This document shows positions 3,178 through 14,466 of a DNA stretch of 24,000 nt, in pieces. The DNA is from Limnobaculum zhutongyuii (GTDB lineage: Bacteria > Pseudomonadota > Gammaproteobacteria > Enterobacterales > Enterobacteriaceae), in contig NZ_CP034752.1 of assembly GCF_004295645.1 (NCBI RefSeq), forward strand, positions 2,081,809 to 2,105,808, written 5' to 3'. The translations under genes and the position numbers were made by a program. The stretch's first letter is position 1, and every line of letters begins with the position of its first letter. The notes beneath the pieces are model-generated. The model saw only the letters and a program-made list of their open reading frames with translations, was not told where the DNA came from and searched no databases.

Positions 3178-4203
3178 TTATTGCTTCTGAATGTTTACTT
3201 CGATTCCCTGCTCTATCGATTGAATATCAATACGGCAATTTAAAAACTGACAGATAACTAAAGCATTAGTCGAAAGATGATCGGTTATCTCTGAAGTGGT
3301 AAAACATCCTTTCCCCGCGATGGCCATTGGCAACAGCAATTGATCGGCCAAATACTCGCCTACCGCCGCTGATGATTTCAAATAAGCTTGTGCTTCATCA
3401 CAAGCCTCCTGAGCCACTTTAGCTGCTGCTTTGCCTTTAGTGCCAATGGCACAAAATAGTTCGGTTAAATGTTCAAATTGCAATTTTACCAATAGCGCAT
3501 TACCAGCACATCTTGCTGAAGATACATCAATCGAGCTTAGCTTTGATTGTTCAACCTTTAACTGCTGTTTTACAATGTTCAATTCTCTGAAGGCAACTGA
3601 ATCAGGGACATCTGAAATCAACGATTGTGCACCAATATCAATCAACTTACCGCGCTGAGGCAAATGTAACGCTTGCCATTGCTTAACCGGATAAACGACA
3701 ATCTCAACTTCACCGCCACCTGCCGGATAAAAACCACAGCGATGCACTAATAAGGTTGCTTTCGCCCCCATTCGCTCCATTAATGGCAGCCAAACCTGTT
3801 GTAAAAAACTGGTCGATGGTGCCATAGGGTTATGAGTACCACCGCTCAATCTCACCCTACTTTCGCTATGAGCTGACCATAAGGCGGGTAATAGCGTCTG
3901 TAACACCAATGCACAACTGCCAGCGCCTCCTAAATCAAACTGATAGTTTCCGGACTTAATTTGACCTGGAATAAACGTCAATTCCGTTGAGTTTAATATT
4001 GCACCACTGACCTGTGCATCACAAACCTGCTGTGCTGCCAGAATAGCGGTTAAATGTTGGCGCATAATACCGGGCTTGCTTCGCCCGGCTCTGATATGAG
4101 TAAAACGTACGGCTTTACCAGTAATCATCGACAGCGACAATCCGCTGCGGAGAATTTGCCCTCCGCCTTCACCTTTTGAGCCATCAATTTCAATCCATTG
4201 CAC
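3178..4203 (-). CDS. rtcA: RNA 3'-terminal phosphate cyclase RtcA
   Basis: 341 aa. The N-terminus IDGSKGEGGGQILRSGLSLSMITGKAVRFTHIRAGRSKPGIMRQHLTA closely matches the E. coli RtcA signature as I remember it (GEGGGQILRS...IRAGR.KPGL.RQHLTA). GTG start at 4203 with AGGA 7 nt upstream. Confidence 0.95.
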   Translation of the reverse strand: MQWIEIDGSKGEGGGQILRSGLSLSMITGKAVRFTHIRAGRSKPGIMRQHLTAILAAQQVCDAQVSGAILNSTELTFIPGQIKSGNYQFDLGGAGSCALVLQTLLPALWSAHSESRVRLSGGTHNPMAPSTSFLQQVWLPLMERMGAKATLLVHRCGFYPAGGGEVEIVVYPVKQWQALHLPQRGKLIDIGAQSLISDVPDSVAFRELNIVKQQLKVEQSKLSSIDVSSARCAGNALLVKLQFEHLTELFCAIGTKGKAAAKVAQEACDEAQAYLKSSAAVGEYLADQLLLPMAIAGKGCFTTSEITDHLSTNALVICQFLNCRIDIQSIEQGIEVNIQKQ

Positions 4204-4244: not shown

Positions 4245-5468
4245 TTACCCTTTAACGCAAACCACCTGCTTTAAAGTATGAACAATCTCTACCAGCTCTG
4301 ACTGTGCGGTCATCACTGCATCAATATCTTTATAAGCCATAGGTATCTCATCAATAACATCTGAGTCTTTACGGCATTCAACACCCGCCGTGGCTTTGAT
4401 CTGATCCTCGATCGAGAAACGACGTTTTGCTTCGGTACGACTCATTGTTCGACCTGCTCCGTGACTGCAGGAACAGAATGCATCCGGGTTACCTTTTCCT
4501 CGTACGATAAAAGATCGGGCTCCCATAGAACCGGAAATAATCCCCAATTCACCGGCCTGAGCACTCACCGCACCTTTACGAGTTACCAGTACGTCCTGAC
4601 CAAAATGCTGTTCTTTCTGTACATAGTTATGATGGCAGTTCACTGCTTCCATCTCTAAAGTAAAGGGCTTAGTGATTACAGTACGAACTGCAGCAATCAC
4701 GTTATTCATCATCGTTTCACGGTTTAATCGGGCATAACGCTGCGCCCAATCAACGGCAAAAACGTAATCGTTATAATGTTCGCTACCTTCAACCAGATAA
4801 GCTAAATCCTGATGCGGTAGGTTTATAAAGTGTCGTTGCATATCTTTTTTCGCCAGTTCAATAAACAGGCTTCCGATAGCATTACCGATACCACGAGAAC
4901 CGGAGTGCAACATAAACCACACAGCCTGATTCTCATCCAGACAAACTTCGATAAAGTGGTTACCTGTTCCCAAGGTTCCTAAGTGAACCCGATTATTGGT
5001 ATTTTTCAACTTAGGGTACTTATCAATAATCTGCTTAAAGTCAGGATCTAACTGTAACCATGCACGGTTTACCGTTTCAGGCACATCATTCCATGCTCCT
5101 TTATCTCGCTTGGATCGATTAACTTCCCGACCATGCGGTACCGCTCGTTCTATCGCATCTCGCACCGCAGATAAGTTATCCGGTAAATCGCTTGCATGCA
5201 GAGATGTTCTCACCGCAATCATCCCACAACCGATATCCACACCTACCGCAGCGGGAATAATCGCCCCTATGGTAGGAATGACAGAGCCAATGGTTGAACC
5301 TTTACCCAAATGTACGTCCGGCATCACTGCAATATGTTTAAAGATAAACGGCATTTTGGCCGTGTTCTCTAACTGACGCTTAGCCTCGTCTTCAACCGGA
5401 ACTCCCTGAGTCCACATTTTAACCGGGCGACCATTCTCAACGTTCATTACCTGAATTGAGGGTTTCAT
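4245..5468 (-). CDS. rtcB: RNA-splicing ligase RtcB (3'-phosphate/5'-OH RNA ligase)
   Basis: 407 aa. PVKMWTQGVPVE...AKMPFIFKHIAVMPDVHLGKGSTIGSVIPT...AAVGVDIGCGM is nearly identical to E. coli RtcB as I remember it. The catalytic-His block CSHGAGR is present. SD AAGGA lies 7 nt before the ATG. Confidence 0.96.
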   Translation of the reverse strand: MKPSIQVMNVENGRPVKMWTQGVPVEDEAKRQLENTAKMPFIFKHIAVMPDVHLGKGSTIGSVIPTIGAIIPAAVGVDIGCGMIAVRTSLHASDLPDNLSAVRDAIERAVPHGREVNRSKRDKGAWNDVPETVNRAWLQLDPDFKQIIDKYPKLKNTNNRVHLGTLGTGNHFIEVCLDENQAVWFMLHSGSRGIGNAIGSLFIELAKKDMQRHFINLPHQDLAYLVEGSEHYNDYVFAVDWAQRYARLNRETMMNNVIAAVRTVITKPFTLEMEAVNCHHNYVQKEQHFGQDVLVTRKGAVSAQAGELGIISGSMGARSFIVRGKGNPDAFCSCSHGAGRTMSRTEAKRRFSIEDQIKATAGVECRKDSDVIDEIPMAYKDIDAVMTAQSELVEIVHTLKQVVCVKG

Positions 5469-5537
5469 TATTTATCCTTTGTTCTCTTCCATTTCGTTGT
5501 TGGTTTTATCATTTCAACAAGTGGTATTTATAAGGTC

Positions 5538-5663
5538 GGGCGACAAATTTTGGTGAAACATTCACAATGCTCTATCCAACTGAGCTACGGAACCTGGTTA
5601 GATTCCGGCGGGAGTTGAACCCGCGACCTTTGTACTTGGATGTAGTTCCACCGGCATTCGCCC
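5538..5663 (-). ncRNA. Y-RNA-like unit 4 (YrlA-like, with permuted tRNA-like domain)
   Basis: Minus strand: GGGCGA-ATGCC-GGTGGAAC-TACATCCAAG-TACAA-AGGTC-[GCGGG TTCAACT CCCGC]-[CGGAATC TAACCA GGTTCCG]-TA-[GCTC AGTTGGATA GAGC]-A-TTGTG-AAT-GTTTCACC-AAAATTTG-TCGCCC. The 5' and 3' ends pair in two helices (GGGCGA/TCGCCC and GGTGGAAC/GTTTCACC). It has a canonical T-arm, a loop-closed 7-bp acceptor stem, a canonical D-arm and a 5-bp anticodon-stem equivalent (TACAA/TTGTG). Confidence 0.75.
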
Positions 5664-5674
5664 TGTATTTAGCT

Positions 5675-5785
5675 GCGGTAACAAGTATTGTGCGAAACAC
5701 TCGCTCTACCAGTTTGAGCTATTGCTGATTTCTCAGTAACCCGGACTCGAACCGGGAACACTGTAGTTTCGCCTGCATTTACCGC
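5675..5785 (-). ncRNA. Y-RNA-like unit 3 (YrlA-like, with permuted tRNA-like domain)
   Basis: Minus strand: GCGGTAA-ATGCAG-GCGAAAC-TACAGTGTT-[CCCGG TTCGAGT CCGGG]-[TTACTGA GAAA TCAGCAA]-TA-[GCTC AAACTGGTA GAGC]-GAGT-GTTTCGC-ACAATACTTG-TTACCGC. The architecture matches units 1 and 4, with different but complementary helix sequences. Confidence 0.7.
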
Positions 5786-5796
5786 TTATTCGTAAA

Positions 5797-5898
5797 GCAA
5801 ACCGATAACAACCAGTGATGCAGAGATATCTCCTTGCGGAGGCCGGGTTCGAACCGGCTAAACCATGTAATCCCTGCGGGCATTTGTTACCTGTTTGC
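5797..5898 (-). ncRNA. Y-RNA-like unit 2 (short, YrlB-like; T-arm only, no D-arm)
   Basis: Minus strand: GCAAACAGGTAACAA-ATGCCC-GCAGGGAT-TACATGGTTTA-[GCCGG TTCGAAC CCGGC]-[CTCC GCAA GGAG]-AT-ATCTCTGC-ATCACTGG-TTGTTATCGGTTTGC. The outer helix spans 15 positions (13 Watson-Crick pairs, 1 G.U, 1 mismatch). The 8-bp inner helix has 1 G.U. It shares the ATGCC and TACAT motifs with the other units. Confidence 0.6.
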
Positions 5899-5962
5899 GT
5901 TGTTCTGTCATTATTTCAGCAATGACTTAAACTATTTAATCTAACTCTGACCCTGAAAAAGC

Positions 5963-6104
5963 GGAGGACAAAAGTGATGAAACGTATTGGATGCAAGCAT
6001 CCGGTGCTCTGCCTCTGAGCTACGGTTCCATTGTGGCGGAACCGACGGGATTCGAACCCGTGACCTCCTCATTCGTAGTGATGTAGTTCCATCGGCATTC
6101 CTCC
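5963..6104 (-). ncRNA. Y-RNA-like unit 1 (YrlA-like, with permuted tRNA-like domain)
   Basis: Minus strand: GGAGGA-ATGCC-GATGGAAC-TACATCACTACGAATGAGG-AGGTC-[ACGGG TTCGAAT CCCGT]-[CGGTTCC GCCACAAT GGAACCG]-TA-[GCTC AGAGGCA GAGC]-ACC-GGATG CTTG CATCC-AATAC-GTTTCATC-ACTTTTG-TCCTCC. The inner helix covaries with unit 4 (A:T here, G:C there). The exact outer boundary is uncertain because GGAG can alternatively pair in a local CTCC-TGATAAA-GGAG hairpin. Confidence 0.7.
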
Positions 6105-6115
6105 TTTATCAGGAG

Positions 6116-6180
6116 TGGCATAACATTATGATGATCGGGAAGACAAACTTCTTACCACCTTGCTTTTAACTGTTATGCCA
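6116..6180 (-). other. 65-nt stem-loop immediately downstream of the rsr stop codon
   Basis: The minus-strand arms TGGCATAACA and TGTTATGCCA form a 10-bp perfect stem. It encloses an internal GGTAAGA/TCTTCCC hairpin. Function unknown; it could be a processing or stability element, or the 5' part of unit 1. Confidence 0.5.
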
Positions 6181-6190
6181 CGATGCTCAG

Positions 6191-7774
6191 TTATTGTGAC
6201 AATGTCACTTTATTAATTTCACCTAACCAGTGTTCGGATTGCATTTGTCCCTGGGAAAATGCGCTAATCATCTGAAATACTGTGTCAGAAAACCCACCAA
6301 TATTCAGAATGTCTTCCCTTTCCTTCGCCTGTGTCGTGGCATAGGGCTGGATATCCAGACAAATCAGTCTGGCCGACGGATTAAAACGTTTAAACATTTC
6401 CCACTGGCGCATAGTCTCTGTTGCGCTACTTCCCTGACGATGAATACTTCCCCAGGATTCGTTATCCGAAACCAGCAGTACTACATCAGCGCGAATGCCT
6501 TTGGCGTTTAACCATTTCAGCGGTGCGCTACAATCTGTTCCACCACCACAGGCCGCTGCCAATTTGGTAGCATTAGTTAACACCGTATCTCTTGGGTTCA
6601 ACACAACCCGATTGCTTTCCACTACCTGATACTCAAAAGGTACGATTAGTGTATCGCGCTGTTTACGCAGATAAGTGGCGGCAATCAATGCCGCAATATC
6701 AACGCAGCGGGTTACGGTTGTTGCTCCAGGGCGATAACCGGTTGCCGGAGAGTGCATAGAACCCGAGACATCCGGACATACCACCATTTTTCCTGCCACT
6801 GGCAATACGTTCTCTAAGGCAATTTCCAATGCATCCTGTAATGCTTCACGCACCATCAGCGGAATCTCTTTACTGGCTGACTGATATGCCGTCATTAACT
6901 GATACGGGAACACTTTTGCCTGCATAATGTTCTTTCTGTCACTCAACTTATCAGCAATCACTTTTGTCATGCCCGGTAACTCAAACACACCGTGACGGGC
7001 AAAGGTGTTCAGATTCATTCGCACCATCTGCCAGCTACCCTGCTTTGCTATCTTCGCCCAGTCTGCCGTAGTCAAATTTAATGCAGTTAACATCTGGAAC
7101 GGCACCGCCGGTAATCCATCTTCATCACAGTTACCCTGACGTTTATATTGCTCAAACGCGCGAGTAATTGGCGGTAATACTTTTTCATCATAGGGCTTAC
7201 CAATTAACCAGGCAAAGAAGGCTTCTCTCCAGCTTTCTTGTGGTTTTGGATGTACCATCTTTACCACATCCGCTAACGAAGGATTATTACCTACTGCCGC
7301 TGATAACAGTGCTTTCTCACTGGCGTTATTTAACCAATCCTGCACTAATTTTTTAGGACGTGTACCTAAAGATTTACGTCCCACGGTATCACTACGTAAT
7401 ATCTGCACAAAATTACGTAACATTTTGCCGTTATCCACCACCAGTGGAAATGCCATTGGTAAATACTCTTTTCCCTTCACTGACAATATGGCTAACAGTA
7501 ATGCCGGCATATCTTTCATATAACCATATTGACGGCAGTACACGGCTATTTTGGCCAGCATTAACGGATCTACCTGAGAGCACAGCGCCATTACGGTATC
7601 TAATTGAGTTTCTGCCGAAGCGTAATAAGTACCATTTAAGCAACCCGTGGCAGCATACTGTGCCAATGCATGTTCTGCACTAAAGCGGTATGCCGTTCCA
7701 CCTGCTTCATTCTTATCATTCGTTTTTGGTAACCAACGACCTTTTAATGATTTAAATAGTTGAGTATTCGCCAT
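6191..7774 (-). CDS. rsr: Ro60-related protein Rsr (TROVE domain + vWA domain)
   Basis: 527 aa from the ATG at 7774 (MANTQLFKSLKG...). AGGAG lies 7 nt upstream. The track's longer GTG-initiated ORF to 7816 lacks an SD. It is a TROVE-type protein with a C-terminal vWA MIDAS motif (DVSGSM) and sits next to Y-like RNAs and rtcBA, as in the Salmonella rsr operon. Confidence 0.9.
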   Translation of the reverse strand: MANTQLFKSLKGRWLPKTNDKNEAGGTAYRFSAEHALAQYAATGCLNGTYYASAETQLDTVMALCSQVDPLMLAKIAVYCRQYGYMKDMPALLLAILSVKGKEYLPMAFPLVVDNGKMLRNFVQILRSDTVGRKSLGTRPKKLVQDWLNNASEKALLSAAVGNNPSLADVVKMVHPKPQESWREAFFAWLIGKPYDEKVLPPITRAFEQYKRQGNCDEDGLPAVPFQMLTALNLTTADWAKIAKQGSWQMVRMNLNTFARHGVFELPGMTKVIADKLSDRKNIMQAKVFPYQLMTAYQSASKEIPLMVREALQDALEIALENVLPVAGKMVVCPDVSGSMHSPATGYRPGATTVTRCVDIAALIAATYLRKQRDTLIVPFEYQVVESNRVVLNPRDTVLTNATKLAAACGGGTDCSAPLKWLNAKGIRADVVLLVSDNESWGSIHRQGSSATETMRQWEMFKRFNPSARLICLDIQPYATTQAKEREDILNIGGFSDTVFQMISAFSQGQMQSEHWLGEINKVTLSQ

Positions 7775-7893: not shown

Positions 7894-7909
7894 AGCGATA
7901 AGCGTGCCA
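7894..7909 (-). promoter_or_regulatory. Sigma54 (-24/-12) promoter for rsr operon
   Basis: Minus strand reads TGGCACG-CTTA-TCGCT against the consensus TGGCACG-N4-TTGCW. GG and GC have the correct 12-nt register, with a single mismatch in the -12 element. The predicted TSS is near 7883, about 110 nt upstream of the rsr ATG. Confidence 0.65.
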
Positions 7910-8122: not shown

Positions 8123-8779
8123 TTATTTTAACTGTTGTATTGCCTGCCAGACTTCACCCAGCGAATTAACCTGCACATCGGCTAATCCAAATCGCTTATC
8201 CTGACACGCTTCTGGTGCAGGCATAACGATCACTTTCATCTGGGCCGCTTTAGCCGCCACCATACCGTTTACTGCATCTTCAATCACGATACACTCCTCC
8301 GGATTGACGTTGAGTATTTCTGACGCCCGCAAAAATACCGCCGGATGAGGCTTACCATTAATCATGCCTTCAGCAGAGATTTGGTGGGAAAAGTAATGGC
8401 TAATATTTAACGCATCTAATACGCGGGCAATTTGCTTTCGTGGTGAAGAAGACGCAACTACTATCGGCAAACCATGCTGTTGAATAGTTTCCAACAGTTC
8501 AACTACCCCAGGCATAGGCTGAGGATGAGTTTGTATTCTTCGACCAACTTCAGTAACAATTTCTTCAACACGGCGAGGAACGTCTTCTAACGGGAGTGAG
8601 TGACGATGATGGTGCTCTGTCAGTAACTTATCAATACGAATCCCGGCACTATCTTTAAAATCCTCATCGTCTAAATGAACGCCATAACACTGCAAATAAA
8701 TTTCTTGTTCCACTTTGACCCAAACAGGCTCTGAATCCACCAGTACGCCATCCATATCAAAGATAATAGCCGTCGTCAT
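8123..8779 (-). CDS. HAD-superfamily sugar/hexitol-phosphate phosphatase (HxpB/YniC-like, beta-PGM subfamily)
   Basis: 218 aa from the ATG at 8779 (MTTAIIFDMDGVLVDSEP...), with GAGGG just upstream. It has HAD motif I DMDG, motif III K...P, and a C-terminal EDAVNGMVAAKAA...VMPAPEA..D.RF block resembling E. coli YniC as I remember it. The track's 244-aa version is an N-terminal over-extension into sgcR. Confidence 0.85.
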   Translation of the reverse strand: MTTAIIFDMDGVLVDSEPVWVKVEQEIYLQCYGVHLDDEDFKDSAGIRIDKLLTEHHHRHSLPLEDVPRRVEEIVTEVGRRIQTHPQPMPGVVELLETIQQHGLPIVVASSSPRKQIARVLDALNISHYFSHQISAEGMINGKPHPAVFLRASEILNVNPEECIVIEDAVNGMVAAKAAQMKVIVMPAPEACQDKRFGLADVQVNSLGEVWQAIQQLK

Positions 8780-9560
8780 ACCCTCTTTCTCCCGCTCTGA
8801 TGATATTAATTCCAGCCTGTCGGTAACGTTGAAACGTCTCTTCAGGCAGTAACGCATCAGTAATAATACAGCTCATCGAGAGTAACGTCGCCACACTGTG
8901 AGGTTTTATCTGATCGAATTTACTGTGATCCGCCAGTAGTACGACTTGTCGGCCCCGCTGGATCAGCATTTTCTTCACTCCTACTTCAAAAACGGTGGAG
9001 TTAGTTATCCCGCTCTCCAGAGATAACGCATCACATGACATAAAGGTTTTATCTGCTGAAAATAGTTTCAACATATCAACGGCAAGGCTTTCTCCTACGG
9101 AAAAATATCCTGAGCGAATCATGCCGCCAACGATATAGCTCTCCAGTTGGTTATAACACCCCAGTTGATTGGCTATTTTTACATCAGTGGTAATCACTTT
9201 GGCGGAGATATCTGACAGTCGTTTTGCCAGTTCCAGACAGGTTGAACCTGAATCCAGCAAAATGCAGTCATCTGGCTTGATCATGTTGCGGGCAACCTGA
9301 GCAATATCCTGCTTAGCCACCCGTTGAATACTCTGTTTAACATCAAAAATGTACTCTTGATCGACGGTGGTTTTATCAAATACGATACCACCATGACAGC
9401 GAACCATTCCCGGATAGCCATCCACAATAATCTGAAAGTCTCGTCTGACAGAAGCTTCAGCATAGCCAAACAGTTCAACCACCTGGCGTGTTTCTATCTT
9501 TTTATGCTGCCACAGATAGTGCAGGATATTACGCATTCGATCGGAACGTTTATCGCTCAT
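8757..9560 (-). CDS. sgcR: DeoR-family transcriptional regulator of the sgc-type PTS operon
   Basis: 267 aa from the ATG at 9560, with GGGAG 7 nt upstream. It has an N-terminal wHTH (RMRNILHYL...VVELFGYAEASVRRDF) and a DeoR C-terminal sugar-phosphate sensor domain. Its position after sgcE matches the E. coli sgcXBCQAER order. Confidence 0.8.
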   Translation of the reverse strand: MSDKRSDRMRNILHYLWQHKKIETRQVVELFGYAEASVRRDFQIIVDGYPGMVRCHGGIVFDKTTVDQEYIFDVKQSIQRVAKQDIAQVARNMIKPDDCILLDSGSTCLELAKRLSDISAKVITTDVKIANQLGCYNQLESYIVGGMIRSGYFSVGESLAVDMLKLFSADKTFMSCDALSLESGITNSTVFEVGVKKMLIQRGRQVVLLADHSKFDQIKPHSVATLLSMSCIITDALLPEETFQRYRQAGINIIRAGERGYDDGYYL

Positions 9561-10200
9561 CGCCAATCTCCCGAAAAGTATCGATATTTGCTACCAAGGC
9601 TTCTGAACTAAATAGTGCCCGCCCCAGCACCAGATGTCGGGCTCCGGCAGCATACAGTTTGCTGGCCGCGGCAAGCGTAATACCACCATCAGCCCAAATT
9701 TCCATTTCTTTAAACAACGATGTGGCCTGTACAACTTTATCAATCAGCTGTGGATTAAAACGCTGCCCCACACCGTCAGGCTCACTGGTCATAACCATTA
9801 AGCTATCCATCAATGAAGCCAGATAAGAATAAGGTGCCAATGGTGTTGCCGGATTGAACGCCAGTCCGGCTTTACTTCCGATTTCTTTAATTAGGGCCAG
9901 AATCTCAGCCGGATTCGCCAGTGTTTCAGCATGAACAAATATCCAGGCTGGATTAAGTGGTTTCAGCCATTCAATCCATGGAAATGGATCCCTGACCATT
10001 AAATGAAACGACAAAGGATGAGAAGTAGCCCCTGCAACCTGAGTAACGGTTTTTAAACCAAAGGTGATATTTCGAATAAAGCTGGTGTCTTCAATATCCA
10101 AATGAATCGAGCCTATTGTCGCCGTATTCAACCGGTTGAGGGTTTCGCCTAACTCAAGCTGACAGGCCGAGGCCAGTGACGGGTGAATAGTGGTTAGCAT
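9550..10200 (-). CDS. sgcE: Ribulose-phosphate 3-epimerase-family protein (SgcE-like pentulose/hexulose-phosphate epimerase)
   Basis: 216 aa. HPSLASA...GSIHLDIEDTSFIRNITFGLKTV...HPLSFHLM...PAWIFVHAET...AGLAFNPATP...MVMTSEPDG.GQRF...WADGGITLAAA...GRALFSS matches E. coli SgcE block for block as I remember it. Confidence 0.9.
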   Translation of the reverse strand: MLTTIHPSLASACQLELGETLNRLNTATIGSIHLDIEDTSFIRNITFGLKTVTQVAGATSHPLSFHLMVRDPFPWIEWLKPLNPAWIFVHAETLANPAEILALIKEIGSKAGLAFNPATPLAPYSYLASLMDSLMVMTSEPDGVGQRFNPQLIDKVVQATSLFKEMEIWADGGITLAAASKLYAAGARHLVLGRALFSSEALVANIDTFREIGDER

Positions 10201-10202
10201 AG

Positions 10203-10652
10203 TCAGATACCCACAATTGCCGAATCTACCAGTCGGTAAAGTTCATCATCGCTTCTGGCCTGCTGAATTTGTGTTATCAGTGCTGAGTTATCCAGTAAGG
10301 AGGCAATAGTCTGGATGGTCTTTATATGCTGTTCAGCATCCGTTGCACTGACGCAAATAAGCAGCCAGATGAGATCACACTCATCATGGTCAAAGTTCAC
10401 TGGTTGCGACAATGTAGTAAATGCCACACCATTACGGATAGCACCCTGCTCTGGACGGGCATGAGGTAAGGCGATTCCTGGTGCAATTAAATAATACGGG
10501 CCGTATTCCAGCGTATTATCAATAATGCCCTGGATATACTCGATTTTTGCATAGCCAAGCTCAATCAATGGTGTGGCCGCCAGCGCTACCGCTTCCTCCC
10601 ATGATTCAGCATGGCGTAAAGCCTGCGCGGCCTTACAATCCACAATCAACAT
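10203..10652 (-). CDS. sgcA: PTS EIIA component (mannitol/fructose-type EIIA_2)
   Basis: 149 aa. It has the phosphorylatable-His context GIALPHARPE, and its size and position equal E. coli SgcA. SD GGAG lies 6 nt upstream of the ATG. Confidence 0.85.
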   Translation of the reverse strand: MLIVDCKAAQALRHAESWEEAVALAATPLIELGYAKIEYIQGIIDNTLEYGPYYLIAPGIALPHARPEQGAIRNGVAFTTLSQPVNFDHDECDLIWLLICVSATDAEQHIKTIQTIASLLDNSALITQIQQARSDDELYRLVDSAIVGI

Positions 10653-10685
10653 CGTTGACTCCTTTAACCATTAGGTTATTGTAAT

Positions 10686-10725
10686 ATTCCCCCGAAGGTA
10701 CTTTTGGCGAAGACTTCGGGGGAAT
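10686..10725. repeat. 12-bp perfect inverted repeat (intercistronic hairpin) between sgcQ and sgcA
   Basis: ATTCCCCCGAAG-N16-CTTCGGGGGAAT, read directly from the sequence. Confidence 0.7.
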
Positions 10726-10775
10726 AGCCTGTTCATTGGCTAACTACCGGGGGTAAGCGCTTTGCTTATCCCTTT

Positions 10776-11582
10776 TTATTGGCGAATACTGCGAACCTTA
10801 TCCATAAATCGCGCTACACGATCTCCATCGACAAAATTTTCAAAAATGCCGTCTTTCTTGAAATGCGTGGCAGTAACGCAACCGTCAGCAATAGACAACT
10901 GCTCTTCTACGTTTTCCAGACAGACCCCGGTATTGGCTAACACCACGGTGTCAGGTACCGTATCTTTTACTAACTTCAGCGTAGCCGAGTCGGTTTTGCT
11001 GCCAGCAGTCAAACCAGAAACACAGAGCGCATCCGGACGATTGTTAAATACCGTTGATTTAGCAATCGACTGAATATCCCGATTACCTAAATAGACGGCT
11101 GCTTCCGGTACGATGTTGAACAGCGTTTTCACCTTTCCTGCACCTATCCGTTGCTGGTGCCGAATAGTCTCTCCAACATTGGTATTCCAAACGCCGAAAT
11201 CACTGGCATAAGCCCCGGTAAAAATTTCACGAATGAACTGTGCGTCTACTGCCATAGCCAAATCAAAAGAGGCCACCGGATCCCAGAGTACGTTAACCCC
11301 ATATGGAACCCGGATTTCCGCCATCAATTGACCAATAATGCGGGCCATTGCGGCTGAGGTTTCTGGTTTCACTTTGGTTAAGTAAGGCATACTAAACTCA
11401 TTGGAGAACATCACCGCATCTACTCCACCGTTTTGTAAGGCGGTCAAATCTTCATATGCCCGATCAATCACCCAGCTCATGCCTTTGCTGGTATCAAAAC
11501 CCGGATCTCCCGGTAATGCTCGAAAATGACACATGGCTATCACCGCTTTTTCTATGCCAATCACTGACTTAAGCCAACTCAT
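10776..11582 (-). CDS. sgcQ: BtpA/SgcQ-family protein (TIM-barrel, unknown function)
   Basis: 268 aa, the same length and operon position as E. coli SgcQ. Soluble alpha/beta-type composition. SD AGGAG is upstream. Confidence 0.8.
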   Translation of the reverse strand: MSWLKSVIGIEKAVIAMCHFRALPGDPGFDTSKGMSWVIDRAYEDLTALQNGGVDAVMFSNEFSMPYLTKVKPETSAAMARIIGQLMAEIRVPYGVNVLWDPVASFDLAMAVDAQFIREIFTGAYASDFGVWNTNVGETIRHQQRIGAGKVKTLFNIVPEAAVYLGNRDIQSIAKSTVFNNRPDALCVSGLTAGSKTDSATLKLVKDTVPDTVVLANTGVCLENVEEQLSIADGCVTATHFKKDGIFENFVDGDRVARFMDKVRSIRQ

Positions 11583-11634
11583 TTCTGTTACTCCTGTTCA
11601 ATTTAGACCTGAATAAAAAATTGTTAATAACCCA

Positions 11635-12948
11635 TTAAGCAGACAGCTCTTTAGTGCGTAACCACAGTACAATTGCACATACCGCCCCCACTGCAATGAC
11701 CACACCAATAACGCCCATGGCCATTAACTCAACAATTGACCAACCAAACATATTTCCCACGGATAAGGCACTGATTTGTGCACCGTCGGCAGCAAAGCTA
11801 AACCCACCGTTACGAGCCATTTCGGTAAAGTAAGGGGCAAATTGAGTGGCAATAAGTAATACGGTTATCATGACAATCACACCGCTAATTAAGGTACGAA
11901 TCAGGTCACCACGATGAATCACGGTTGCCATACAAATGAAGAATGGTGCGACGGGAAGGTCCGCCAGCGGTAATACCTGATTGCCGGGCAATACGCTGGC
12001 AATCAATAACATAATCGGAATCAGCAACAGGCCAACGGCGATCGTAGTTGGATGCCCCAGGGTTACCGCCGTGTCCAGACCAATGTAAACTTCCCGTCCG
12101 TGAAGATATTTTTGAAAGAATTTACGTGCACCGTCTGAAATCGGCATTAAACCTTCCACAATCAGGCGGATCATTCGAGGAAATAACACCATAATTGCCG
12201 CTACCGTGATCATCAGTGTCATCGTGCCTTTAAAGTTTTCTCCGGCGGACAAGCCAAAAATCAGTCCCAGCACGACGCCGATAATCACCGGATCGCCAAC
12301 CATGCCGAAACGCTTCTGAATTTCAGTGGCATCAATATTTCGGCCTTTAAGAAACGGAACATAGCTATAAAGTTTATCCAACAGGATAAACAGCGGCACT
12401 GAACTGGAACCATATCCCTGTGGTATAGAGATCCCTTCCAGCCCAACAATGCTTTGTACTCGTTTCGCCGTCAGATCGGCAATTTTCAGGGAAAGTGCCG
12501 CATGGCATATCGCTGCCAGCACGCCATAAATCATATTTCCCGTCATTAACTGTACCACTGAACCGGTAATGGCATAGTGCCAGTAGTTATAGATATCGAC
12601 GTTCATGGTTTTGGTTAACCGGGTAACCAACATGCCGATATTGAGTAAGAAAATCACCGGGATAATCATTGCGCCAATGGCAGTGGCATAGCCCACACCG
12701 GAGGCAGGTCCTGCGCCGACATCCAATATGTGTAGGTTCAGACCAAAGCGTTCAATCATGATTTTTATCGGCGGACTGAGGCTATCTATCGCCATAACAA
12801 TGACTAACCCCATACCAACGAAGCCAATACCTACCGTTACCCCCGCTTTTACCGCCTGCAGAACTGGAATTCTGAAAATTAAACCAATCAGAATCATCAC
12901 CATCGGTACGAAAACGGTTCCTCCCAGAGACAAAATGTAATCAAACAT
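11635..12948 (-). CDS. sgcC: PTS EIIC permease, galactitol (GatC/SgcC) family
   Basis: 437 aa polytopic membrane protein. Length and position are identical to E. coli SgcC. GGAGG is upstream of the ATG. Confidence 0.88.
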   Translation of the reverse strand: MFDYILSLGGTVFVPMVMILIGLIFRIPVLQAVKAGVTVGIGFVGMGLVIVMAIDSLSPPIKIMIERFGLNLHILDVGAGPASGVGYATAIGAMIIPVIFLLNIGMLVTRLTKTMNVDIYNYWHYAITGSVVQLMTGNMIYGVLAAICHAALSLKIADLTAKRVQSIVGLEGISIPQGYGSSSVPLFILLDKLYSYVPFLKGRNIDATEIQKRFGMVGDPVIIGVVLGLIFGLSAGENFKGTMTLMITVAAIMVLFPRMIRLIVEGLMPISDGARKFFQKYLHGREVYIGLDTAVTLGHPTTIAVGLLLIPIMLLIASVLPGNQVLPLADLPVAPFFICMATVIHRGDLIRTLISGVIVMITVLLIATQFAPYFTEMARNGGFSFAADGAQISALSVGNMFGWSIVELMAMGVIGVVIAVGAVCAIVLWLRTKELSA

Positions 12949-12961
12949 AACGCCTCCCGCC

Positions 12962-13240
12962 CTATTGGCTCAGCAGTGCTTTGATTTTTTCTTTAAGCAC
13001 ATCATCATTAATACCGATTAATAACGGTGCACCGTTCAGTGTGGGAATGCCGTAATCCTTATCCACTTTCATGGATGTCACGATCAGATCCATTCCGCTA
13101 CAGTTATAAGGGATCTCATTCAAACAACATTGAGATGTACTCACCGGGATTCCTTGCTCACTTAAATATTCCTGTAAGCGCTGTGCAATCATGGTTGAGG
13201 TGGACATGCCTGTTCCGCAGGCTACCAGTATCTTTTTCAT
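12962..13240 (-). CDS. sgcB: PTS EIIB component (galactitol-type)
   Basis: 92 aa from the ATG at 13240 (MKKILVACGTGMSTS...). It has the active-site Cys in the ACGTG context, with GAGG 8 nt upstream. The track's 97-aa version starts 5 codons earlier without an SD. Confidence 0.85.
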   Translation of the reverse strand: MKKILVACGTGMSTSTMIAQRLQEYLSEQGIPVSTSQCCLNEIPYNCSGMDLIVTSMKVDKDYGIPTLNGAPLLIGINDDVLKEKIKALLSQ

Positions 13241-13284
13241 CTTGTTGTACCTCATCGTAAAAGAGAGTTGTTAAGTGCCAACGC

Positions 13285-14376
13285 TTATCTGGCGGCAACA
13301 GGAAACTGTTGCCCCTTAGTCTGGGCTATGGCGGTTAATAATCGAATGCAATCACTCAGGTCGCGGATGCTGGCTACTTCGCTGGGAGAATGGGTATAAC
13401 GACAAGGGATAGACAGGCTGGCGCAAGGAATACCGTCTTGCTCCATTTGGATATAGCCCGTTTCAGTAATTACGCCCGGAGCCACTTCTCTTTGTACCGG
13501 GATCTGGTGCTCTGCTGCGGTCTTTTCCAGAAAAGCAATCAGCCTGGGTGGTGTAATCAGACCAGCCAGCGTTCCCCGCCCGTGATAGTTCAGACAGGTA
13601 ATACCCGGACCTTTGTTGATAACCACATCGGAATAATCTGATAAATCGGGGGTATCGCAAGACGGGGTAATATCAATACCAATGGCCATATCCGGGTTAA
13701 TCCGGCGCAATACCGGCAAAATCCCCCGAATATTAAATTCCTCTTGTACCGAGGCCACCAGATAAAGTGCAATATCCAGCTCCATCTGTTCTACTGCTGC
13801 AGCAACACCCAATAACGCGGTACATCCCAGTCGATCGTCCAGCGCTTTACTACAAACCAGATCGTTAGCTAACAGCTGCGGTGGGTTATACAGACATACC
13901 GGCGTTCCTACTTTGATGCCCATCCGGGCAGCATCCTGCTTATCTGCTGCACCGATATCAATCCACAGATGTTCAATACCCGGAGGTTGAGTACGTTCAT
14001 CGCCCTTACTGAAATGATAAGACTTAATCCCAATACAACCATGTACCGGGCCCTGTTCACCGTCCAGTCTGACCGTTGAACCTGACATCGTGATCTGTGC
14101 CGGACCACCTACTCGTTCGAAACGCAAAAAACCATTTTCTTCAATTTTTCGCACCATGAAGCCCACTTCATCCATGTGCGCAAAAACCATCAGTCTGAAA
14201 GCATCCGGCGATTGACTGCCGTATTGAGCAACAACGTTGCCCAGACGGTCCTGCCATACCTGATGAGCGCTTTGGCTAAATTGCTGTTGCATAACCGATG
14301 CGATGTTATGTTCATGGTCAGAGATTCCATCCAGCGCCAGTAAACTCAGCAGATTTTTTTGAACATCAAAAGTCAT
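13285..14376 (-). CDS. sgcX: M42-family metallopeptidase/endoglucanase-like protein
   Basis: 363 aa from the ATG at 14376, with GGAGG 6 nt upstream. It has M42-type metal-ligand blocks (AHMDEVGF, ALDDRLG, QEEF) and is the first gene of the operon, as in E. coli sgcX. Confidence 0.85.
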   Translation of the reverse strand: MTFDVQKNLLSLLALDGISDHEHNIASVMQQQFSQSAHQVWQDRLGNVVAQYGSQSPDAFRLMVFAHMDEVGFMVRKIEENGFLRFERVGGPAQITMSGSTVRLDGEQGPVHGCIGIKSYHFSKGDERTQPPGIEHLWIDIGAADKQDAARMGIKVGTPVCLYNPPQLLANDLVCSKALDDRLGCTALLGVAAAVEQMELDIALYLVASVQEEFNIRGILPVLRRINPDMAIGIDITPSCDTPDLSDYSDVVINKGPGITCLNYHGRGTLAGLITPPRLIAFLEKTAAEHQIPVQREVAPGVITETGYIQMEQDGIPCASLSIPCRYTHSPSEVASIRDLSDCIRLLTAIAQTKGQQFPVAAR

Positions 14377-14466
14377 ATATCCTCCCCGTTTTACTATTTG
14401 GGAGGCGTTCAAGACCACCTCCATTCAATCAACTACTGAACGTTTATATGCTTCCAATGGCGTTAA

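What the first reader, a model, noticed from the sequence alone, without database searches (positions are those of the whole stretch)
5538..6104. Four tandem Y-RNA-like units with a shared architecture and helix covariation
On the minus strand I can trace four consecutive units (6104-5963, 5898-5797, 5785-5675, 5663-5538). Each has the same plan: outer helix, then A-ATGC(C/A) on the 5' side of an internal loop, then an inner helix, then TACA(T/G), then a T-arm-containing module, then the 3' strand of the inner helix, then an A...T(T/G)G loop, then the 3' strand of the outer helix. The helices differ in sequence but stay complementary. Outer helices are GGAGGA/TCCTCC, GCAAACAGGTAACAA/TTGTTATCGGTTTGC, GCGGTAA/TTACCGC and GGGCGA/TCGCCC. 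Inner helices are GATGGAAC/GTTTCATC, GCAGGGAT/ATCTCTGC, GCGAAAC/GTTTCGC and GGTGGAAC/GTTTCACC. Compensatory changes such as A:T versus G:C at inner-helix position 2 of units 1 and 4 argue for selection on structure. The conserved asymmetric internal loop is a candidate Rsr-binding site. As far as I recall, Salmonella has two such RNAs (YrlA, YrlB) and a few bacteria were reported with more. Four in a row, three of them with full tRNA-like domains, is at the high end.
Basis: seen in the sequence. Interest (0 to 1): 0.75.

Follow-up and report, generated by a model that had tools for sequence, protein, structure and literature searches.

The report
Four Y-RNA genes between rsr and rtcB
The interval holds four real, structurally conserved Y-RNA-like genes (YrlA family and kin) between the Ro60 homologue gene rsr and the RNA-repair genes rtcB and rtcA of a Limnobaculum-type enterobacterium. 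Arrays of this size turn out to be common next to related rsr genes, so this is a good new example of a known kind, not an outlier.

Summary
On the minus strand, four consecutive units (6104-5963, 5898-5797, 5785-5675, 5663-5538) share one plan: outer helix, A-AUGC internal loop, inner helix, and a module with a tRNA-like T arm.

- **Rfam match.** All four match Rfam YrlA (RF02553) full length: 47.1, 22.8, 67.6 and 86.6 bits. Only unit 4 passes the 69-bit gathering score.
- **Context.** They lie between rsr (7774-6191) and rtcB/rtcA, downstream of a conserved sigma-54-type promoter motif. This is the rsr-Y RNA-rtcBA operon type known from Salmonella.
- **Conservation.** The same four-unit array is present in all five Budviciaceae loci examined (three Limnobaculum, Pragia, Budvicia). 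Every unit shows compensatory changes.
- **Unit types.** Units 1, 3 and 4 have T arm, acceptor-like stem and D arm. Unit 2 has only a T arm and belongs to a widespread class of about 90-100 nt.
- **Age.** The units are old paralogues, not recent duplicates.

The claim that four in a row is "at the high end" fails. Among 79 related rsr loci, 27 carry arrays of four to six units, and Rfam's own model confirms this on the seven largest arrays.

Expression and Rsr binding are untested. Verdict: new member of a known kind, modest interest.

The parts
7894..7909 (-). Sigma-54-type promoter motif TGGCACGCTTATCGCT, about 120 nt upstream of rsr. It is the likely operon promoter.
   Evidence: One mismatch to TGGCAC-N5-TTGCW. 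TGGCACN5TYGCT occurs once upstream of rsr in each of L001-L004. It is a conserved block (15 of 16 positions invariant) in an otherwise diverged AT-rich region in five species. Function is inferred.
6191..7774 (-). rsr, the Ro60 homologue (527 aa).
   Evidence: Pfam vWA_Ro60 6.6e-16 and TROVE. 95% identical to the Limnobaculum xujianqingii protein. The start codon is fixed by alignment of five species.
6115..6181 (-). Long hairpin directly after the rsr stop codon (GUGGCAUAAC...GUUAUGCCAC, U-rich apical loop). It is either a 3' stabiliser of the rsr mRNA or a fifth, hairpin-type small RNA.
   Evidence: Fold -22.9 kcal/mol, z = -2.6. A similar three-tier hairpin occurs in Pragia, and a different compact hairpin sits at the same place in Budvicia. 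It has no A-AUGC loop and no Rfam or R1 hit.
5963..6104 (-). Unit 1: a YrlA-like RNA. It has a 7-bp acceptor-like stem followed by GCCA (6037-6034), a D arm, and an extra hairpin GGAUG-CUUG-CAUCC (6002-5989). It is followed by GC + UUUUU.
   Evidence: Rfam YrlA 47.1 bits, E 3.1e-09. R1 106 bits. Helix coordinates. Compensatory changes in the outer helix and T arm among species. NCCA is present in 4 of 5 Budviciaceae. After in-silico permutation, ARAGORN at a relaxed threshold reads a cloverleaf.
5797..5898 (-). Unit 2: a Y-like RNA with a T arm only. It has a 14-bp outer helix, the A-AUGC loop, an 8-bp inner helix, a T arm and a small hairpin, but no D arm.
   Evidence: Rfam YrlA 22.8 bits, E 0.032. 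R1 (built without U2) 23.9 bits, and the unit is found in all five species. Fold z = -3.3. Inner-helix pairs CG to UA and AU to CG/UA among species. It belongs to a widespread class in which 16 of 21 pairs covary.
5675..5785 (-). Unit 3: a compact YrlA-like RNA (no variable-region insert) with T arm, 7-bp acceptor-like stem and D arm.
   Evidence: Rfam YrlA 67.6 bits against a gathering score of 69, E 3.7e-15. R1 96 bits. Four compensatory pairs in the acceptor-like stem among species. Its outer helix is shared with the first unit of Enterobacteriaceae bacterium B14.
5538..5663 (-). Unit 4: a canonical YrlA with the exact GNCGAAN0-1G motif (GGCGAAUG), T arm, 8-bp acceptor-like stem and D arm.
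   Evidence: Rfam YrlA 86.6 bits, above the gathering score of 69, E 3.1e-19 for the whole window. R1 133 bits. GC to AU compensation in the inner helix in Pragia.
4245..5468 (-). rtcB, RNA ligase.
   Evidence: Pfam RtcB 1.5e-129.
3178..4203 (-). rtcA, RNA 3'-terminal phosphate cyclase.
   Evidence: Pfam RTC 2.7e-76. NCBIfam equivalog 437 bits against a cut-off of 352.

Best explanation
The interval encodes four distinct non-coding Y RNAs inside a sigma-54-driven rsr-(Y RNA x4)-rtcB-rtcA RNA-repair operon of a Limnobaculum species (Budviciaceae).

Proposed mechanism:
- The units are co-transcribed with rsr and rtcBA.
- They are cut out of the polycistronic transcript at the short AU-rich linkers.
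- Each is stabilised when Rsr binds the module formed by the outer helix and the conserved A-AUGC / UUG-U internal loop.
- The distal module is then exposed as the effector-binding part, which would tether Rsr to other factors, as Y RNA tethers Rsr to PNPase in Deinococcus. In U1, U3 and U4 this module is a permuted tRNA mimic (T arm, acceptor-like stem, D arm). In U2 it is a T arm only.
- The four units are old, separately conserved classes, so they probably give Rsr different partners or substrates.

Shown here: the sequences, the structures, the family match, the covariation, the synteny and the conservation.

Inferred: transcription from the sigma-54 motif, processing, Rsr binding, and a separate function for each unit.
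For: - **Family match.** Rfam YrlA hits all four units full length on the rsr strand. U4 is above the gathering score.
- **Neighbours.** Rsr, RtcB and RtcA are identified by Pfam and NCBIfam.
- **Conserved array.** The four-unit array is present in three Limnobaculum, Pragia and Budvicia. The units are far better conserved than the U1-U2 spacer, which is deleted in Pragia.
- **Covariation in the array.** 98.2% of cells are paired and 14 of 26 pairs change on both sides, against 35-49% paired in the slid controls. Each unit has true compensatory changes among orthologues.
- **Covariation in the wider family.** 25 of 26 pairs covary across 150 units.
- **Binding module.** AAUGC and UUGU are invariant in the U1, U3 and U4 sequences of the model alignment and kept in U2.
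- **Promoter.** The sigma-54-type motif upstream of rsr is conserved in five species.
- **Old paralogues.** Identity between units is 0.46-0.67. This is lower than each unit's best match in distant taxa, 0.67-0.79.
- **Literature.** In S. Typhimurium, Rsr binds YrlA and YrlB, which are encoded between rsr and rtcB. YrlA is modified by TruB and DusA (PMC4201824, PMC7790460).
Against: - There are no expression, end-mapping or binding data for this organism.
- Three of the four units fall below Rfam's gathering score, and U2 is only marginal by score alone.
- Three of the four lack the exact GNCGAAN0-1G motif proposed for Rsr recognition. The deviating bases are the helix pairs next to the loop.
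- No rtcR lies next to the operon in Budviciaceae, so its regulation is unknown.
- The alignments used for the pair counts were fitted to the model's structure.
Confidence: 0.72

Rival explanations
1. Only unit 4 (perhaps with unit 3) is a true Rsr-bound Y RNA. Units 1-3 are conserved tRNA-like structured elements with another role in the operon transcript. They could be processing punctuation that separates the rsr and rtcBA messages. They could be decoys for anticodon nucleases. They could be ligands, substrates or regulators of the RtcB/RtcA/RtcR pathway.
For: Only U4 passes Rfam's gathering score and has the exact GNCGAAN0-1G motif. U1 has a 7-bp acceptor-like stem plus NCCA, the feature linked to RNase P cleavage of M. 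smegmatis YrlA (PMC4201824). Hughes et al. 2020 (PMC7790460) suggest that the tRNA-like domain could inhibit an anticodon nuclease.
Against: All four keep the same loop-proximal module: a closing A-U pair with AUGC on one side and UUG-U on the other. This is invariant in U1, U3 and U4 of five species and kept in U2, which argues for one shared ligand. About 35% of units in other arrays also deviate from CGAA.
Confidence: 0.2
2. Units 1-3 are decaying duplicates (pseudogenes) of a single functional YrlA gene.
For: Their scores against the YrlA model are lower.
Against: All four are retained in three genera. The units are near-invariant while the spacers diverge or are deleted. Each unit has compensatory base-pair changes. 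Each unit is closer to units in distant phyla than to its neighbours.
Confidence: 0.03
3. The region is a cluster of tandem tRNA genes or tRNA pseudogenes misread as Y RNAs. Chen et al. 2014 name this as a known false-positive source for YrlA models.
For: T-arm and D-arm sequences are tRNA-like. There are weak tmRNA and mascRNA hits.
Against: ARAGORN finds no tRNA in the whole window. The T arm precedes the D arm within each unit. Each unit is closed by two covarying helices around the A-AUGC loop, which tRNA dimers lack.
Confidence: 0.02

Closest known systems
S. Typhimurium YrlA and YrlB in the rsr-yrlBA-rtcBA operon (Chen et al. 2013, 2014; Hughes et al. 2020)
   Same: The gene order is rsr, then Y RNAs, then rtcB, then rtcA, all on one strand. 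A sigma-54-type promoter motif lies upstream. The YrlA architecture is the same: a 5'/3' stem with the GNCGAA-type loop plus a permuted tRNA-like domain. U4 passes the Rfam YrlA gathering score.
   Different: There are four RNAs instead of two. No divergent rtcR is adjacent. The Rsr protein belongs to another clade: Salmonella Rsr is not among the best 120 homologues. Three units deviate from the GNCGAAN0-1G motif. I could not compare directly with the validated Salmonella sequences, because they were not retrievable with these tools.
M. smegmatis YrlA (cleaved by RNase P, CCA added; Chen et al. 2014)
   Same: U1 has a 7-bp acceptor-like stem. Chen et al. name this as the determinant of RNase P cleavage. 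Here it is followed directly by an encoded discriminator plus CCA.
   Different: Cleavage is untested here. The CCA is genome-encoded, not added. U1 has an extra hairpin after the D arm. It lies downstream of rsr, not upstream.
D. radiodurans Yrn1/Yrn2 locus
   Same: Several small RNAs are encoded next to rsr on the same strand and made from a polycistronic precursor. One of them carries a tRNA-like module.
   Different: It is a different lineage of Y RNA with a metazoan-like Ro-binding helix, located upstream of rsr and not linked to rtcBA.
Vertebrate Y RNA sets (Y1, Y3, Y4, Y5)
   Same: A small panel of two to four distinct Y RNAs shares one Ro60-binding module and differs in the distal module.
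   Different: They are separate Pol III genes with no tRNA-like domain. The homology of the RNAs is uncertain.
Permuted (two-piece) tmRNA genes
   Same: The order in U1 is T arm, 3' acceptor strand, NCCA, loop, then 5' acceptor strand. This gives weak tmRNA_permuted hits (21 bits in the window, 29 bits in Budvicia).
   Different: The scores are far below the gathering score of 47. There is no tag reading frame. ARAGORN finds no tmRNA.

Membership tests
YrlA (Rfam RF02553) | Covariance-model score at or above the gathering score of 69 bits: unit 4 | tested here: met
   86.6 bits, model positions 1-114 of 114, E 3.1e-19 for the whole window.
YrlA (Rfam RF02553) | Covariance-model score at or above the gathering score of 69 bits: units 1, 2 and 3 | tested here: not met
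   U3 67.6, U1 47.1 and U2 22.8 bits. E-values are 3.7e-15, 3.1e-09 and 0.032 in a 901-base search. U1 and U3 are highly significant but below the threshold. U2 is marginal.
YrlA (criteria of Chen et al. 2014, PMC4201824) | Encoded within 4 kb of the Ro60/Rsr gene and on the same strand | tested here: met
   All four units lie 87-653 nt downstream of the rsr stop codon on the minus strand.
YrlA (criteria of Chen et al. 2014) | GNCGAAN0-1G motif near the 5' end | tested here: inconclusive
   The motif is exact only in U4 (GGCGAAUG). U1 has GAGGAAUG, U2 AACAAAUG and U3 GGUAAAUG. The AAUG(C) part is present in all four units. The deviating bases are helix pairs that covary. In other arrays 149 of 230 units have CGA before AUGC.
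YrlA (criteria of Chen et al. 2014) | Conserved T-like and D-like stem-loops joined by an acceptor-like stem, with T before D | tested here: met
   Met for U1, U3 and U4. U2 has the T arm only, so it is not a YrlA in the strict sense.
Y RNA (functional definition) | Bound and stabilised by Ro60/Rsr | not testable with these tools
   This needs Rsr immunoprecipitation or gel shifts.
Y RNA (functional definition) | Accumulates as a discrete small RNA | not testable with these tools
   No transcriptome data were available.
YrlB-type (second, non-YrlA Y RNA) | Sequence or structure homology to S. Typhimurium or M. smegmatis YrlB | not tested
   There is no Rfam family and no validated sequence was retrievable. 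According to PMC4201824, M. smegmatis YrlB has a possible T arm, and U2 shares that trait. This is resemblance only.
tRNA gene | Cloverleaf in the standard order, detectable by ARAGORN | tested here: not met
   No tRNA was found in the 24-kb window. A cloverleaf is read only after artificial permutation of U1 and U3, at a relaxed threshold.
rsr-yrlBA-rtcBA type operon | Divergent rtcR activator gene next to the operon | tested here: not met
   Upstream of rsr lie a HAD hydrolase and a DeoR regulator on the same strand. No sigma-54 activator ORF is adjacent. The related locus L005 does have RtcR, at 804 bits. The sigma-54-type promoter motif is nevertheless conserved.

The most novel reading that the evidence does not exclude
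Rsr genes of this clade come with conserved multi-class Y-RNA arrays of three to six genes. The classes seen are a short hairpin, a T-arm-only unit, a compact YrlA, a YrlA with a variable-region insert, and an NCCA-bearing YrlA. This would be a bacterial counterpart of the vertebrate Y1/Y3/Y4/Y5 panel, with each class tethering Rsr to a different partner.

In Budviciaceae one class (unit 1) is a complete permuted tRNA mimic. It has a 7-bp acceptor stem, an encoded NCCA and an anticodon-arm-like hairpin. RNase P would split it into a two-piece RNA with a free CCA end.
Probability: 0.2. Interest if true: 0.6.

Novelty: new member of a known kind. Interest (0 to 1): 0.33.

Why it matters
The finding adds a well-supported four-gene Y-RNA locus in Budviciaceae to the known YrlA family. 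Standard thresholds under-call such loci: one of the four units passes Rfam's gathering score, and NCBIfam's Rsr equivalog model scores this protein far below its cut-off.

The survey made here is more useful than the single locus. It indicates that heterogeneous Y-RNA arrays are the rule next to this Rsr clade. This bears on the open question of what bacterial Y RNAs and their tRNA-like domains do in the RtcB/RtcA repair operon.

Pragia fontium and Limnobaculum are culturable enterobacteria. The four RNAs could therefore be tested directly.

Tried and rejected
- **Tandem tRNA genes.** ARAGORN found none in the window, so this reading is rejected.
- **E. coli genomes.** Neither a near search nor a distant search for the locus gave any match.
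- **Salmonella locus.** I tried to reach the validated Salmonella yrlB-yrlA locus through homologues of the window Rsr and of the B14 Rsr. Salmonella Rsr is not among the best 120 in either search, so no direct comparison was possible. The second search was poor value.
- **Literature.** Chen et al. 2014's supplementary tables, which list genomes with several YrlA-like hits, are not held. The reviews by Sim & Wolin 2018, Sim et al. 2020 and Boccitto & Wolin 2019 are not held either. I therefore could not establish the largest copy number already published.
- **Internal promoter or terminator.** The scan found no sigma-70-type promoter in the U1-U2 spacer and no canonical terminator after U1. 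The conserved U-run after U1 remains unexplained.
- **Post-rsr hairpin as a sigma-54 promoter.** The hairpin contains TGGCAT, but the -12 element is not conserved. Rejected.
- **rsr 5' UTR.** An Rfam scan of it found nothing.
- **Small ORFs.** ORFs of 30-60 aa overlap the interval on both strands. I did not pursue them, because the pattern of change is compensatory in helices and does not follow codons.

Full report
**What is in the interval**

Read on the minus strand, the window has rsr at 7774-6191. This is a 527-aa Ro60 homologue with Pfam vWA_Ro60 at 6.6e-16 plus TROVE. A 722-nt non-coding stretch follows, then rtcB (5468-4245, Pfam RtcB 1.5e-129) and rtcA (4203-3178, RTC 2.7e-76).

The Rsr protein is 95% identical to that of Limnobaculum xujianqingii, 94% to L. 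eriocheiris and 79% to Pragia fontium. The window therefore comes from a Limnobaculum-type member of the Budviciaceae.

Every helix it listed is present at the stated coordinates.

**Is it more than chance?**

A whole-window Rfam scan at gathering thresholds returns exactly one family: YrlA (RF02553), at 5664-5534 with 86.6 bits against a gathering score of 69. A permissive scan of 5400-6300 finds all four units as full-length YrlA matches on the same strand:

| Unit | Bits | E-value |
|---|---|---|
| U4 | 86.6 | 1.2e-20 |
| U3 | 67.6 | 3.7e-15 |
| U1 | 47.1 | 3.1e-09 |
| U2 | 22.8 | 0.032 |

- ARAGORN finds no tRNA or tmRNA anywhere in the window. The published false-positive source, tandem tRNA genes (PMC4201824), therefore does not apply.
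- The minimum-free-energy folds of U1, U2 and U4 reproduce the proposed plan. U3 gives both closing helices but misfolds the inner arms. Z-scores run from -2.3 to -3.3.

**Conservation and covariation**

The rsr-rtcB spacer of L. xujianqingii (L001), L. eriocheiris (L003), Pragia fontium (L002) and Budvicia aquatica (L004) has the same four units in the same order.

- The units are nearly invariant. The 64-nt spacer between U1 and U2 is poorly conserved and is deleted in Pragia.
- I built a covariance model (R1) from U1, U3 and U4 of these species plus one unit from Enterobacteriaceae bacterium B14. It contains no U2 sequence. It still finds U2 in all five loci at E of 2e-4 to 8e-4.
- On the 20 aligned units, 98.2% of cells form standard pairs and 14 of 26 pairs change on both sides. 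With the 3' partners slid by one to three columns, only 35-49% are paired. This alignment is fitted to the model, which favours the structure. The gap to the slid controls is nevertheless large.
- Independent of the paralogue alignment, a plain MAFFT alignment of the orthologous spacers shows true double changes in every unit:
  - U1 outer helix: AU to GC and GC to AU.
  - U1 T arm: AU to GC.
  - U2 inner helix: CG to UA, and AU to CG or UA.
  - U3 acceptor-like stem: four pairs changed.
  - U4 inner helix: GC to AU.
- Across 150 units from 79 loci, 25 of 26 pairs covary.

**Anatomy of the units**

All four share a closing A-U pair followed by AUGC on the 5' side, and UUG-U on the 3' side. These positions are invariant in the U1, U3 and U4 sequences of the model alignment and are kept in U2. 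This module overlaps the GNCGAAN0-1G motif that Chen et al. 2014 relate to Ro60 recognition (PMC4201824).

Only U4 has the exact motif. In U1-U3 the two helix pairs next to the loop differ and covary. In other arrays 149 of 230 units have CGA before AUGC, so deviation is common.

- **U4** is a standard YrlA with a variable-region insert.
- **U3** is a compact form of about 113 nt.
- **U1** has a 7-bp acceptor-like stem (CGGUUCC/GGAACCG) followed directly by GCCA.
  - NCCA is present in 4 of 5 Budviciaceae, and in 13 of 118 units with such a stem overall.
  - CCA peaks at that offset: 15 cases against 2-4 at neighbouring offsets. A second peak at another offset and shared ancestry make this only suggestive.
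  - U1 also has an invariant extra hairpin after the D arm.
  - When the Rsr-binding stem is removed and the sequence permuted in silico, ARAGORN at a relaxed threshold draws a cloverleaf. This is an illustration, not a test.
- **U2** lacks the D arm and the acceptor-like stem. It aligns with a class of about 90-100 nt, T-arm-only units found in Burkholderiales, Neisseria, Acidobacteriota and Verrucomicrobiota. In that class 16 of 21 predicted pairs show compensatory change.

**Age of the units**

Within the window, identity over model columns is 0.67 for U4-U1, 0.52 for U4-U3 and 0.46 for U1-U3. Each unit's best match in a distant taxon is higher: 0.73, 0.79 and 0.67.

The first of the two units in Enterobacteriaceae bacterium B14 shares U3's outer helix sequence, and its second unit is the best match of U4. 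The units are therefore old paralogues, and U3-U4 look like the ancestral enterobacterial pair.

**How unusual is four?**

I fetched 80 rsr loci from species-representative genomes and searched them with R1. This gave 269 matches. All are on the rsr strand and almost all lie directly next to rsr.

| Units in the largest array | Loci |
|---|---|
| 1 | 10 |
| 2 | 17 |
| 3 | 25 |
| 4 | 18 |
| 5 | 8 |
| 6 | 1 |

- Excluding the five Budviciaceae loci, 22 of 74 loci have four or more units.
- R1 was trained on Budviciaceae, so counts elsewhere are, if anything, too low.
- Rfam's own YrlA model, run on seven of the larger arrays, finds five units in a Blastocatellia MAG, six in a Neisseria MAG, four each in a Verrucomicrobia MAG, Undibacterium terreum and Variovorax paradoxus, and three in each of the other two.
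- Four is therefore ordinary for this Rsr clade.
- The literature I could read describes two Y RNAs per characterised species. It reports 355 YrlA-like sequences in 276 genomes, with multiples listed in tables I could not obtain (PMC4201824).

**Operon context**

A sigma-54-type motif, TGGCACGCTTATCGCT (7909-7894), lies about 120 nt upstream of rsr. It is a conserved block (15 of 16 positions invariant) within diverged AT-rich sequence in all five species. This fits the RpoN/RtcR-dependent Salmonella operon (PMC7790460).

No rtcR is adjacent here, whereas the B14 locus has one at 804 bits. The linkers U2-U3 and U3-U4 are 11 nt long and AU-rich. This is compatible with endonucleolytic release of the units, which is an inference.

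**Conclusion**

Rsr binding and expression remain untested. The rarity claim is wrong. I rate this as a new member of a known kind. The side observations (the NCCA-bearing unit 1, multi-class arrays as the norm) are worth a specialist's follow-up.

Noticed in passing
window 6115-6181 (minus strand): A long three-tier hairpin with a U-rich apical loop sits directly after the rsr stop codon. It is conserved in Limnobaculum and Pragia, and Budvicia has a different compact hairpin at the same place. It could stabilise the rsr mRNA 3' end, or it could be a fifth, hairpin-type small RNA.
   Followed up: partly
window 5956-5962 (minus strand): A run of four to five U follows the closing helix of unit 1 in all five species (GC+UUUUU here), although the spacer beyond it is not conserved. 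The pattern scan called no terminator. Its role (a partial terminator or a 3'-end signal) is unexplained.
   Followed up: partly
window 7894-7909 (minus strand); L001 5866-5881, L002 5832-5847, L003 3867-3882, L004 3652-3667: A conserved sigma-54-type promoter motif lies upstream of rsr, although no rtcR or other enhancer-binding protein gene is adjacent in Budviciaceae. The activator must be encoded elsewhere.
   Followed up: partly
L004 3846-3966 (Budvicia aquatica): An RtT-like element (Rfam RF00391, 41.5 bits against a gathering score of 45) lies within an insertion of about 200 nt between the sigma-54 motif and the rsr start. It is absent from the window and the other species.
   Followed up: no
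L053 5792-6772; L082 2105-3928; L069 2227-3907; L045 3819-4489; L046 5620-6344: Related rsr loci carry arrays of five to seven Y-like units. In Neisseria the arrays lie upstream of rsr, in two clusters. Many Burkholderiales arrays start with a unit of about 62 nt that has no T or D arm.
   Followed up: partly
window 6191-7774 (minus strand): NCBIfam's Rsr equivalog model scores this protein only 94 bits against a cut-off of 900. Public records name it 'vWA domain-containing protein'. This Rsr clade is therefore not named as Rsr by the standard annotation.
   Followed up: no
window 8123-14424 and L001 1-5651 compared with L002 1-5529: The left flank of the operon differs between genera. In Limnobaculum it is a PTS sugar, DeoR, epimerase and HAD cluster. 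In Pragia it is ecotin and a sulfate transporter. The right flank (TauE, 5'-nucleotidase) is shared. This suggests rearrangement or insertion at the rsr side.
   Followed up: no
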